Shown here one piece after another: positions 6,398-7,625 of a stretch of DNA of 64,000 nt. This DNA comes from Candidatus Latescibacterota bacterium (GTDB lineage: Bacteria; Latescibacterota; UBA2968; GCA-2709665). Location: NCBI GenBank assembly GCA_965248435.1, contig OZ252100.1, positions 4,256,001 to 4,320,000 of the forward strand, written 5' to 3'. The notes beneath the pieces are model-generated. The model had not been told where the DNA came from. It searched no databases and saw nothing but the letters and a program-made list of their open reading frames with translations. Positions within the stretch are counted from its first letter, which is position 1; each line of letters opens with the position of its first letter. A program made the translations under genes and the position numbers.

Positions 6398-6457
6398 AGC
6401 AGAAGCTGCGAGCGATGTGGGAATGGGGCTTAATGGCCGTAGCAACTGTCTTGGGTG

Positions 6458-7408
6458 TCAAGAAGAACGAGCGTAATCTGCCTGCCAGGGTTTGTGGTCT
6501 CTAATGATCGCATTCACGATGATCAGCAACTTACGCATGCACGCTGTCAGAGCGAGTTTCGCAGGCTTTCCCGCCCCACGCAATCGCTGGTAGAACTCTT
6601 GAATGACCGGATTGTATCGGGCGGCAACCAAGGTGGCCATATAGAGCACACGACGTATCTGAGGTCTTCCGCCCCAGACCCTTCGTTTGCCTCGATATTG
6701 GCCACTGTCGCAGTTGAAGGGCGCTACGCCCACCAAAGCCGCGATTTTCTTGTGGTTGAGCTTGCCCAGTTCCGGTAGCCCAGCCAAAAGGCAAGCTGAA
6801 GTCACCGTGCCGATACCGGGCACGCTCTGGAGTAAGTCGTCCTTTTCACGCCATACAGGCGTGGATCGGATCTGTCTGCTCACGTCGTCATCCAGGTCTT
6901 TGAGACGCTTTTTCAGCCAGGTGATGTGGGCCTTGATGTCGGCCTTCATTGGCGCTGATACGCTGCGCATACGGTTTTGCTCAGCCGTGATCATGTCGAC
7001 GATCTGGCGCCTGCGGGTCGTCAAAGCCGAAAGGGCTCGGTCCTGCTCTGACGGCACAGGGCCAGGCACGGGACGGACGGTAGCACCAAAATGGGCAATC
7101 ACGACTGCGTCGATTCGATCGGTCTTGGCCAAGCGGCCGGTGGCCTTGGCAAAATCCCTGACCTGACGCGGATTGACGACCACCACTGGAAGACCGGCCT
7201 CATACAGGCTGACGACAACCGGGATCTCGAGGCCACCGCTTGCTTCCAAAACGACCAATTTCGGATCTTGTTTCTTGAGCTGCTTGACAAGACCTTTGAG
7301 ACCGGTCAGATCGTTCGAGAAGCTCCACTCGGGACCGATGGGGTTACTGGCACCGTCTAACTTCGTCTTGCTCACGTCTATACCGATAAACACTTCAGAG
7401 CTCACCAT
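6458..7408 (-). CDS. IS110-family DEDD transposase/recombinase (316 aa from ATG 7408)
   Basis: GIDVSK, VLEASG, KTDRIDA (D-E-D-D); SVPGIG and [10 protein letters not shown] (conserved Ser) in the Tnp domain; AAGGAGG RBS before ATG 7408. Confidence 0.97.
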
Positions 7409-7420
7409 GCGTTCCTCCTT

Positions 7421-7587
7421 TAGCACCCAGCCTTGCAATGCGGGCTTTGAGCCCTCGCAACTGTTCGGGTTATTGGGAGGCAGAGAACGTGACGACCCAA
7501 GCTACGGCGCGGCCTTTGTGACCAAGGGGCAACACGGTCTGTCACGCTCGGATTCGGAATTACCGAATATAGCGCTCCGATCTTAGC
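7421..7587 (-). ncRNA. Predicted IS110 bridge RNA with target-binding and donor-binding loops; ends approximate
   Basis: Minus-strand non-coding left end contains GTTGCCCCT (7533-7525) and GCCGTAG (7508-7502) matching the flanking target, and ACAGTTGC (7464-7457) and TGCAAG (7437-7432) matching the donor junction. Each pair is enclosed by a stem (GAGCGTGAC/GTCACGTTC; ACCC/GGGT) with an internal hairpin (GGTC/GGCC; GGGCT/AGCCC). Confidence 0.88.
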
Positions 7588-7603
7588 GACTTCAAGATAC
7601 AAG

Positions 7604-7625
7604 GGGCGGGCCCCTGTGCCCGCCC
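7604..7625 (+). repeat. Hairpin part of a GTAG-type REP interrupted by IS110 (its GTAG is at 6439-6442)
   Basis: GGGCGGGC-CCCTGT-GCCCGCCC, a perfect 8-bp stem; near-identical to the intact copy at 8803-8828. Confidence 0.85.

What the first reader, a model, noticed from the sequence alone, without database searches (positions are those of the whole stretch)
6439..7625. Complete IS621-like bridge-recombinase element with readable RNA guides, targeting a GTAG-type REP
Seen in sequence (minus strand): the empty target is CCCGCCC-CT-ACGGC and the donor (circle junction) is ACAGTTG-CT-TGTAT. The upstream non-coding end carries four guide-like segments in the order known for the IS621 bridge RNA. 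GTTGCCCCT is the left target guide (6 exact matches plus 2 possible G:U pairs). GCCGTAG is the exact reverse complement of CTACGGC. ACAGTTGC is identical to the donor left half plus the first core base. TGCAAG is the reverse complement of CTTGTA with one G:T wobble. Each pair sits in an internal loop closed by a stem. Established: IS110/IS621 recombinases use such bispecific RNAs, and IS621 targets E. coli REPs. Inference: this is an intact natural ortholog programmed for a different donor and a different REP family, so it is a candidate programmable recombinase.
Basis: partly seen in the sequence, partly recalled or inferred. Interest (0 to 1): 0.85.

Follow-up and report, generated by a model that had tools for sequence, protein, structure and literature searches.

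The report
IS110-type bridge-RNA insertion sequence in REP
This is an intact, single-copy mobile element of the IS110/IS621 kind, whose own small RNA carries the address of both its ends and the repeat it sits in; it is a good textbook example, not a new kind of system.

Summary
On the minus strand lies a 1161-bp IS110-group element (7601..6441, with a CT core on each side). It is inserted at the 3' foot of a GTAG-type REP hairpin.

- **Recombinase:** it has 316 aa and both IS110 Pfam domains. It matches the solved IS621 and ISCro4 recombinases (E 1e-43 and 1e-41), with all five catalytic residues aligned.
- **Bridge RNA:** the 193-nt left end folds into two stem-loops with internal loops. A covariance model built from 51 relatives, without this sequence, hits the window once (7551-7414, minus, 103.5 bits).
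- **Covariation:** across about 80 relatives (52-60% protein identity) the guides covary with the flanks and ends. Target left half: 4.77 vs 3.32 matches. Target right half: 4.67 vs 1.65. No shuffle of 10000 reached either value.
- **Promoter:** TTGACA-17-TATCTT forms only at the circle junction, and this arrangement is conserved in relatives.
- **Other copies:** contigs from other public runs stop or diverge at the same ends.

Limits:
- The element is single-copy here.
- Its left target guide fits its own site imperfectly.
- No RNA or activity data exist.
- I could not align it directly to the IS621 bridge RNA.

It is a new member of a known kind, of modest interest.

The parts
7604..7625 (-). 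REP hairpin: arms GGGCGGGC (7625-7618) and GCCCGCCC (7611-7604), loop ACAGGG. Its 3' arm is the left target half (LT, CCCGCCC, 7610-7604). Read on the plus strand, the whole REP is GTAG followed by the palindrome.
   Evidence: stem of 8 G-C pairs; 12 uninterrupted family members in the genome; one of them carries the exact 14-nt empty target.
7602..7603 (-). Left copy of the CT core dinucleotide.
   Evidence: CT precedes TGTAT at the left end of nearly all relatives. Two relatives have CA on both sides.
7409..7601 (-). Left non-coding end (LE, 193 nt), which encodes the bridge RNA. It begins TGTAT (right donor half) and contains the -10-like TATCTT (7599-7594) and a 5' stem-loop (about 7568-7552).
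   Evidence: MFE -70.6 kcal/mol, z -2.52, none of 200 shuffles folds as well..
7485..7549 (-). Target-binding stem-loop. An outer stem of 9+4 pairs and an inner stem close an internal loop that holds the LTG (7533-7525) and the RTG (7508-7502).
   Evidence: (helices 1 and 2: 93% of cells paired, 13 of 17 pairs with compensatory changes).
7525..7533 (-). Left target guide GTTGCCCCT. It has the same sense as LT plus core, so it would pair with the bottom strand.
7502..7508 (-). Right target guide GCCGTAG, complementary to CT-ACGGC. The C that follows it (7501) could pair with the last base of the left donor half after strand exchange (the handshake position; inference).
   Evidence: Handshake guides are described in PMC11208158.
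7425..7470 (-). Donor-binding stem-loop. Stems CCCG/YGGG and GGGC/GCCC close an internal loop that holds the LDG (7464-7457) and the RDG (7437-7432).
   Evidence: (helices 3 and 4).
7457..7464 (-). Left donor guide ACAGTTGC.
   Evidence: In relatives, variants of this guide recur at the right end of the same element.
7432..7439 (-). Right donor guide region AUUGCAAG. UGCAAG pairs with CTTGTA through one G:T, the same non-canonical pair as G161:dT12 in IS621. The AU before it may pair with the last AT of TGTAT, with one U flipped out as in IS621 (inference).
   Evidence: Pairing list for IS621 read in PMC11208158.
6458..7408 (-). Recombinase gene, 316 aa. ATG at 7408-7406, RBS AGGAGG at 7419-7414, stop TGA at 6460-6458. 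Aligned catalytic residues: D11, E55, D97, D100, S235 (and G236).
   Evidence: PF01548 at 1.1e-25, PF02371 at 2.2e-19; 8wt6 IS621 at 3.7e-43, 9t56 ISCro4 at 1.5e-41.
6443..6461 (-). Right end. The -35-like TTGACA (6461-6456) overlaps the stop codon. It also holds the subterminal repeat CAAGA (6453-6449, mirrored by TCTTG at 7597-7593) and the left donor half ACAGTTG (6449-6443).
6441..6442 (-). Right copy of the CT core.
6436..6440 (-). Right target half ACGGC, the remainder of the REP's GTAG side.

Best explanation
This is an intact insertion sequence of the IS110 group, the group that contains IS621. It is 1161 bp long, lies on the minus strand, and sits in a REP at the AG of its GTAG.

Proposed mechanism, by analogy with IS621:
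1. Excision joins the right and left ends into a circle.
2. The junction brings TTGACA (right end) 17 nt from TATCTT (left end), creating a promoter.
3. That promoter transcribes a bridge RNA of roughly 180 nt from the left end.
4. The first internal loop pairs with both strands of the REP target (CCCGCCC/CCTGCCC-CT-ACGGC).
5. The second loop pairs with the element's own junction (ACAGTTG-CT-TGTAT).
6. The DEDD/Ser recombinase, bound to each loop, exchanges strands at the CT core through a phosphoserine intermediate and a Holliday junction.

Shown here:
- the gene and its homology;
- the ends and the target repeat;
- the RNA fold with covariation;
- the guide-flank and guide-end complementarity, in this copy and in relatives;
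- the junction promoter motif.

Inferred, not shown:
- transcription, circle formation, RNA binding, and present-day activity.
For: Protein:
- Both IS110 Pfam domains are present.
- IS621 (8wt6) matches at E 3.7e-43 over residues 7-310, and ISCro4 (9t56) at 1.5e-41.
- D11, E55, D97, D100 and S235-G236 align with IS621 D11, E60, D102, D105 and S241-G242. Roles are from PMC11208158. The chain index is offset by 2, by my count.

RNA:
- RNAalifold on 65 distinct left ends gives two stem-loops; 18 of 26 pairs have compensatory changes.
- For my 26-pair structure, 93.5% of cells pair, against 34-50% when partners are slid.
- 208 cells change on both sides, against 51.4 +/- 8.6 in shuffles; 0 of 500 shuffles reach this.
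- Model R1 (51 relatives, own sequence left out) hits the 64-kb window once: 7551-7414, minus strand, 103.5 bits, E 1.6e-24, full length. It also hits the whole genome only once at E <= 0.001.

Guides:
- In 77 of 79 loci the LDG string plus T recurs just past the ORF.
- The LDG variants ACAGTCGC, ACAGCTGC, ACGGTTGC, ACGGCTGC, ACAACTGC and ATAGTTGC are each mirrored at their own right end.
- LTG against left flank: 4.77 of 7, against 3.32 +/- 0.13 in shuffles.
- RTG against right flank: 4.67 of 6, against 1.65 +/- 0.16.
- In both tests 0 of 10000 permutations reach the observed value (52 and 51 distinct loops).
- The own RTG matches its own flank at 5 of 6. None of 70 other flanks exceeds 3 of 6.

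Target:
- The REP family has 12 intact copies, one with the exact 14-mer.

Promoter:
- Of 54 distinct RE/LE pairs, 41 have at least 5 of 6 matches to TTGACA, almost always 17 nt from TATCTT or TATGTT.

Independent ends:
- Contigs of run X9 (about 95% identical) end at 6439 and 7607.
- A contig of run X15 (about 92%) matches 6437-7618 and then runs into unlike flanks.
Against: - There is only one copy in this 5.67-Mb genome.
- The LTG matches its own site at only 4 of 7 non-core positions, plus 2 possible wobbles and 1 clash.
- The own LTG matches many other elements' C-rich flanks as well or better.
- Three REP copies (CCTGCCC-CT-ACGGC) fit the guides better and are unoccupied.
- No orthologous empty site was found. 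The same-genus genome G001 has the neighbouring gene, but its downstream spacer is unrelated.
- No Rfam family matches the RNA's strand.
- I could not fetch IS621 DNA, so there is no direct alignment to its bridge RNA.
- The only RNA-library evidence is an assembled contig of a 92% relative. It cannot show transcription, strand or ends.
Confidence: 0.9

Rival explanations
1. The element is correctly identified but no longer mobile in this host. It would be a stranded copy whose left target guide has drifted away from its site.
For: - It is single-copy.
- The LTG fits its own REP imperfectly, and better-fitting REPs are empty.
- Run X5 appears to show the same insertion at about 97% identity. 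There the LTG differs at 7531 and 7533 and would pair with CCCGCCCCT at every position if G:U is allowed. That suggests the change in this genome arose after insertion.
Against: - The ORF is open and all catalytic residues are aligned.
- All helices, guides and the junction promoter are intact.
- IS621 itself tolerates a G:T between its LTG and its natural REP target (PMC11208160).
- The drifted LTG matches the majority REP subtype, found in 10 of 12 copies.
- Copies at 92-97% identity exist in other public runs, and in X9 the contigs break at the element's ends, as for a multi-copy repeat.
Confidence: 0.2
2. The structured left end is only a 5' leader that controls translation of the transposase. 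The guide-like matches would then be coincidence or a by-product of the palindromic target.
For: - In the MFE fold, CCUCC (7480-7476) pairs with the ribosome-binding GGAGG.
- Two of the four matches (LTG, RDG) are individually common in shuffles.
Against: - The guides covary with flanks and ends across relatives. A leader has no reason to do this.
- The conserved helices close exactly the loops that hold the variable guide positions.
- The homologous RNA of IS621 is a proven guide (PMC11208160).
Confidence: 0.02
3. It belongs to the IS1111 subgroup, which carries its guide RNA (seekRNA) in a long right end.
For: The recombinase domains are the same.
Against: - The right end is only 15 nt between stop codon and core, and the left end is 193 nt.
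- The subterminal repeat is 5 bp rather than 7-17 bp (criteria from PMC11208160).
- The RNA model matches the left end.
Confidence: 0.01

Closest known systems
IS621 of Escherichia coli (IS110 group; bridge RNA; PDB 8wt6)
   Same: - Same two-domain recombinase, with aligned DEDD and Ser residues.
- Guide RNA in a long left end, with a 5' stem-loop, a target loop, then a donor loop.
[quoted passage not shown]
- CT core; core plus right donor half CT-TGTAT; a G:T pair in the right donor guide.
- Promoter formed at the circle junction.
- Insertion at the AG of the GTAG of a REP.
   Different: - Roughly one third of residues are identical, by my count from the alignment printed, so it is a different IS.
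- The right target guide is 7 nt, against 4 in IS621.
- The left donor half differs, and the REP family (GGGCRGGC...GCCYGCCC) differs.
- The RDG linker is one U shorter.
- The host is not E. coli: there was no useful DNA match in 5426 E. coli genomes (one 66-nt plasmid match over 6% of the query).
- No experimental data exist.
ISCro4 recombinase (PDB 9t56)
   Same: Second solved relative, with a similar score (E 1.5e-41).
   Different: I saw only the PDB listing and read nothing about its RNA or target.
ISPpu10 / ISPpu9 of Pseudomonas putida (IS110 elements in REPs)
   Same: Both target a repeated intergenic sequence whose GC-rich 5' extension forms a stem-loop (abstract of 10.64898/2026.03.19.712850). 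Here the left target half is likewise the 3' arm of an 8-bp G-C hairpin.
   Different: - Whether the hairpin itself is read by this recombinase is untested.
- I made no sequence comparison with ISPpu10.
IS1111 subgroup / seekRNA elements
   Same: Same recombinase family and the same principle of RNA-guided site choice.
   Different: Those elements have long right ends and 7-17-bp subterminal repeats. This element has the opposite layout.
Rfam RF02234 sX15 (Xanthomonas plasmid sRNA; complementary partner asX7)
   Same: The sX15 model aligns end to end with 7406-7562, including the reverse complement of the donor-guide block.
   Different: - The match is on the plus strand, antisense to the bridge RNA.
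- It scores 29.3 bits, below the gathering score of 55.
- sX15 and asX7 were described as complementary sRNAs with 10 homologues in Stenotrophomonas (PMC3300014), not as IS110 RNAs.

Membership tests
IS110 family, IS110 group (bridge recombinase elements) | [quoted passage not shown] | tested here: met
   90.6 bits (cut-off 29) and 70 bits (cut-off 21.3). IS621 at E 3.7e-43.
IS110 family, IS110 group (bridge recombinase elements) | Catalytic D, E, D, D and the conserved Ser (IS621 D11, E60, D102, D105, S241). | tested here: met
   D11, E55, D97, D100 and S235 align with them. Roles are from PMC11208158. The numbering offset of the PDB chain is my own count.
IS110 family, IS110 group (bridge recombinase elements) | Long left non-coding end, short right end, no terminal inverted repeats, and a short subterminal repeat flanking the donor. 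| tested here: met
   LE is 193 nt and RE 15 nt. CAAGA/TCTTG flank the donor. The repeat covaries in several relatives, for example AACA/TGTT and ATCA/TGAT.
IS110 family, IS110 group (bridge recombinase elements) | The LE RNA has two stem-loops, each with a large internal loop (target-binding, then donor-binding). | tested here: met
   The model came from relatives of this element, not from IS621's RNA, which I could not fetch.
IS110 family, IS110 group (bridge recombinase elements) | [quoted passage not shown] | tested here: met
   for this copy. for covariation in relatives. The LTG of this copy is the weakest of the four.
IS110 family, IS110 group (bridge recombinase elements) | Identical core dinucleotide (usually CT) at both junctions. 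| tested here: met
   CT at 7603-7602 and at 6442-6441.
IS110 family, IS110 group (bridge recombinase elements) | A sigma-70 promoter assembled only at the RE-LE circle junction. | tested here: met
   This is a sequence motif only: TTGACA-17-TATCTT. At least 5 of 6 -35 matches in 41 of 54 distinct relatives. Transcription was not tested.
IS110 family, IS110 group (bridge recombinase elements) | Circle formation, RNA-recombinase binding, and guide-dependent recombination. | not testable with these tools
   No joint corresponding to a circle junction appeared in the contigs laid, and contigs could not be expected to show one.
IS621 itself (same IS) | Near-identity of the transposase and the DNA. 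The ISfinder convention is recalled, not checked. | tested here: not met
   About one third of residues are identical. There was no useful DNA match in 5426 E. coli genomes.
IS1111 group | Long right end carrying the RNA, and subterminal inverted repeats of 7-17 bp. | tested here: not met
   Criteria are from PMC11208160.
REP (repetitive extragenic palindrome) as target | A short imperfect palindrome preceded by GTAG, repeated in intergenic DNA. | tested here: met
   12 intact copies plus this interrupted one. The GTAG reading follows from the reverse complement.
REP (repetitive extragenic palindrome) as target | Association with a RAYT (Y1 transposase) gene flanked by REPs. | tested here: inconclusive
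   There are five PF01797 matches in the genome. None lies near the 12 REP copies listed. I did not examine them further.
Rfam sX15 (RF02234) | Score at or above the gathering threshold, on the strand of the RNA. | tested here: not met
   29.3 bits against 55, and on the opposite strand.

The most novel reading that the evidence does not exclude
All 32 copies of the neighbouring IS30-like element carry the 12-mer GACAGTTGCTAC in the loop of a hairpin just before their transposase start codon. This is exactly the IS110 element's left donor half plus CT core plus the first two target bases. A 2026 preprint reports that a 'half-match' (one arm plus core) is enough for IS621 recombination. On that basis, these 32 sites could be real substrates of this recombinase. 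The two IS families would then be coupled, through IS110 insertion into IS30 leaders or through recombinase-driven rearrangements between IS30 copies. One such site lies only 81 nt upstream of this element, in the same orientation.
Probability: 0.05. Interest if true: 0.6.

Novelty: new member of a known kind. Interest (0 to 1): 0.3.

Why it matters
This is a clean natural example of bridge-RNA logic that can be read directly from sequence.
- It has a 7-nt right target guide and a GC-rich REP target unlike IS621's.
- It shows hints of guide drift between two REP subtypes in related strains.

It could be added to the panel of orthologues screened as programmable recombinases. Its relatives give a compact covariation data set.

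It does not change what is known. Thousands of such RNAs were predicted in 2024, and many orthologues have since been tested.

Tried and rejected
- **Fetching IS621 DNA for a direct RNA alignment.** A blastn 'distant' search of this element against 5426 E. coli genomes gave one 66-nt plasmid match. The genome's second IS110 element gave none. The comparison with IS621's RNA therefore rests on the papers' text.
- **Orthologous empty site.** 5 of 31 genomes searched, own genome included, matched the flank. The same-genus genome G001 matches only up to the end of the Bmp-family gene, and its downstream spacer is unrelated.
- **Rfam.** No family matched on the RNA's strand at E <= 10.
- **First regular expressions for guides and ends.** They mis-assigned most loci and were discarded. 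Anchors and an alignment replaced them.
- **Single-sequence shuffle test.** It is weak for LTG and RDG and is reported as such.
- **Genome-wide R1 search.** Only 150 of 1394 candidates were scored. The weak hits on the second IS110 element seen (26.1 bits) did not reappear, so the absence of further matches is not proof.
- **Public runs.**
  - All four runs are assembled contigs, so depth, strand and RNA ends cannot be read.
  - The RNA-library contig of X15 does not show transcription.
  - Bins without cover in X8 mean nothing.
  - The depth peaks at 7128-7215 come from short pieces of other organisms' conserved recombinase motif.
  - Table 3 of that call was cut (98 rows not shown), so guide differences in X9 and X15 are unknown.
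- **Paper supplements** are closed. Durrant et al.'s supplementary lists of orthologues may already contain this element or close relatives, and I could not check.
- **Rows left out.**
  - Of 81 loci (80 plus own), 2 had no usable upstream sequence or anchor (L013, L036).
  - 8 of 79 lacked a callable left flank, and 8 of 79 a right flank.
  - A1 holds 65 of 66 distinct left ends. L073 was dropped for a long insertion.
  - A2 holds 51 of the other 64. Near-duplicates and the own sequence were dropped.
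Full report
**What is there.** Read on the minus strand, the region runs in this order:
- an 8-bp G-C hairpin (7625-7604);
- CT (7603-7602);
- a 193-nt non-coding stretch beginning TGTAT (7601-7409);
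- a ribosome-binding site and a 316-codon ORF (7408-6458);
- 15 nt ending ACAGTTG (to 6443);
- CT (6442-6441);
- ACGGC.

**The protein.**
- It carries PF01548 (DEDD_Tnp_IS110, 90.6 bits) and PF02371 (Transposase_20, 70 bits).
- Among solved structures it matches only the IS621 transposase (8wt6, E 3.7e-43, residues 7-310) and the ISCro4 transposase (9t56, E 1.5e-41).
- In that alignment D11, E55, D97, D100 and S235-G236 stand opposite the IS621 residues that PMC11208158 names as the composite active site: D11, E60, D102, D105, S241, G242 (passages read).
- The PDB chain index runs 2 ahead of the paper's numbering, by my count.
- Identity is about one third, by my count from the printed alignment.

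**Ends and target.**
- The element is single-copy in its 5.67-Mb genome.
- The uninterrupted 14-mer CCCGCCCCTACGGC occurs once elsewhere. It lies inside a hairpin repeat whose 25 nt match the interrupted one.
- A pattern search finds 12 intact members of this repeat (GGGCRGGC, loop, GCCYGCCC, CTAC). Ten have the arm CCTGCCC and two have CCCGCCC. Four are followed by GGC.
- On the other strand the repeat reads GTAG plus a palindrome, the classical REP form.
- The insertion is at the AG of GTAG, as for IS621 at GGCCTAC (REP queries quoted in PMC11208160).
- Five Y1-transposase matches exist in the genome. None lies beside these REPs, so a RAYT link is not shown.
- No orthologous empty site could be found in 30 related genomes.

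**The RNA.**
- The left end folds better than all 200 shuffles (z -2.52).
- I fetched 80 loci encoding relatives (52-60% identity; 508 of 589 candidate stretches were relatives, and the best 80 were kept).
- Their upstream regions align over about 140 nt.
- RNAalifold on 65 distinct sequences gives two stem-loops with large internal loops. 18 of 26 pairs show compensatory change.
- For a 26-pair structure that I wrote down, 93.5% of 1684 cells pair, against 34-50% when partners are slid by 1-3 columns. 208 cells change on both sides, against 51.4 +/- 8.6 in shuffles; 0 of 500 shuffles reach this.
- A covariance model from 51 relatives, without this sequence, finds one place in the window: 7551-7414, minus strand, 103.5 bits, E 1.6e-24, all 141 positions. 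It finds one place in the genome at E <= 0.001.

**Do the guides mean anything?**
- Taken alone, two of the four matches are weak. In 20000 shuffles of the left end, an LTG-like match appeared 13274 times and an RDG-like match 10905 times. An RTG-like match appeared 2126 times and an LDG-like match 853 times. All four appeared together 54 times.
- The comparative test is decisive.
- In 77 of 79 loci the LDG string plus T recurs just downstream of the ORF. Where the LDG differs (six variant forms in 20 loci), the right end carries the same variant. One variant pair has core CA on both sides.
- Over 52 distinct target loops, the LTG matches its own left flank at 4.77 of 7 non-core positions, against 3.32 +/- 0.13 after permuting flanks.
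- Over 51 distinct loops, the RTG matches its own right flank at 4.67 of 6, against 1.65 +/- 0.16.
- In both tests 0 of 10000 permutations reach the observed value.
- For this element the RTG matches at 5 of 6. None of 70 foreign flanks exceeds 3.
- Its LTG matches at only 4 of 7 plus two possible wobbles. Many foreign C-rich flanks do as well.

**Further IS621-like details.**
- The circle junction would place TTGACA (6461-6456, overlapping the stop codon) 17 nt from TATCTT (7599-7594).
- Of 54 distinct relatives, 25 have 6 of 6 and 16 have 5 of 6 matches to TTGACA, nearly always at 17 nt. The -10 is TATCTT in 22, TATGTT in 9 and TATCTC in 8. PMC11208160 describes this junction promoter for IS621.
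- A 5-bp subterminal repeat (CAAGA/TCTTG) flanks the donor and covaries in some relatives. The paper reports a 2-3-bp one.
- The right donor guide uses a G:T pair at the same place as G161:dT12 of IS621.
- Core plus right donor half (CT-TGTAT) equals that of IS621, as deduced from the pairing list.
- IS621's natural target also differs from its LTG-encoded sequence: ATCAGGCCTAC against ATCGGGCCTAC. An imperfect LTG therefore has precedent.

**Other copies in public data (contigs only).**
- Run X5 (a seawater metagenome) holds the same insertion with both flanks at about 97% identity. Its LTG differs at 7531 and 7533 and would pair with CCCGCCCCT throughout if G:U is allowed. The LTG here fits the majority CCTGCCC subtype better. 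This hints at guide drift after insertion.
- Run X9 has contigs at about 95% identity that end at 6439 and 7607.
- Run X15 is an RNA library. One of its contigs, at about 92% identity, matches 6437-7618 and then continues into unlike sequence on both sides. That is another insertion, into a hairpin with the same 3' arm and a right half ACGG.
- These data support the ends independently. They say nothing about expression.

**Comparison and verdict.**
- Every sequence-level defining feature of an IS110-group bridge-recombinase element is met.
- It is not IS621 itself, and it is not of the IS1111 layout.
- Its best relatives among 185,579 species genomes are at most 60% identical in protein, so it would get a new IS name.
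- The kind is well known. PMC11208160 analysed 5,511 target-RNA and 2,201 donor-RNA pairs.
- Verdict: new member of a known kind, interest about 0.3.

**Loose ends.**
- The 12-mer GACAGTTGCTAC at the right junction is also present in all 32 IS30-like copies of the genome. One lies 81 nt upstream in the same orientation.
- A 12-mer match somewhere in 11.3 Mb of two-stranded sequence is expected about 0.7 times, so this may be chance.
- A 2026 preprint reports that one arm plus core suffices for IS621 recombination (10.64898/2026.08.31.748434; abstract and section 8 read). This makes a functional reading conceivable but unsupported.
- The Rfam model sX15 aligns end to end with the antisense of this bridge RNA, below threshold. 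sX15 and its complement asX7 were described on a Xanthomonas plasmid in 2011 (PMC3300014, passages read).
- Among the 8 papers listed, none links sX15 or asX7 to IS110 or bridge RNA. 52 papers held at least two of the four terms, and I did not see the rest.

Noticed in passing
window 7652-8720 (+); 12-mer at 7684-7695: There is an IS30-like element next door (transposase ORF 7709-8692: HTH_38 and HTH_23, with rve below its cut-off). The genome holds 32 copies that share the 12-mer GACAGTTGCTAC. The 12-mer sits in the loop of a 9-bp hairpin just before the start codon. It equals the IS110 element's left donor half plus CT plus AC.
   Followed up: partly
window 7406-7562 (+): Rfam sX15 (RF02234, a Xanthomonas plasmid sRNA) aligns full-length to the antisense of the bridge RNA, at 29.3 bits against a gathering score of 55. 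sX15 and its complement asX7 may therefore mark an IS110-type left end in Xanthomonas and Stenotrophomonas.
   Followed up: partly
genome C1:1444530, 2066532, 3861241 (loci L093-L095): A second, different IS110-group element is present in three copies (98-99.4% alike, about 1.26 kb). Its left end begins TTGTATCTTG and its right end is followed in all three by AACGTTC. Model R1 recognises its left end weakly (26.1 bits).
   Followed up: partly
genome C1, e.g. 2131607, 2244592, 2790686: A second repeat family (10 copies within one mismatch of the 14-nt target) carries GCGCCCCTACGGCG. This matches the right target guide at 6 of 6 positions and the left one about as well as the occupied site does. 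All copies are unoccupied.
   Followed up: no
genome C1:4355702 versus window 7626-7651 and 6380-6400: A paralogous locus has the same IS30-like copy and the same flank on both sides. It lacks the roughly 66-nt unit that holds the REP (and hence the IS110 element).
   Followed up: no
window 7595-7566 (-): A promoter-like site, TTGAAG-18-TATATT, lies inside the left end. It could give a shorter RNA from the integrated copy, starting just before the target-binding stem-loop.
   Followed up: no
window 7625-7594 (-): The REP hairpin followed by CTTGTATCTT scores as an intrinsic-terminator-like site. It may shield the element from read-through transcription coming from upstream.
   Followed up: no
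window 7480-7476 and 7416-7412 (-): In the MFE fold, CCUCC pairs with part of the ribosome-binding GGAGG of the recombinase gene. Conservation of this pairing was not tested.
   Followed up: no
window 7531 and 7533: The 97%-identical copy in run X5 differs at two positions of the left target guide. It fits the CCCGCCC REP subtype, while the guide here fits the CCTGCCC subtype.
   Followed up: partly
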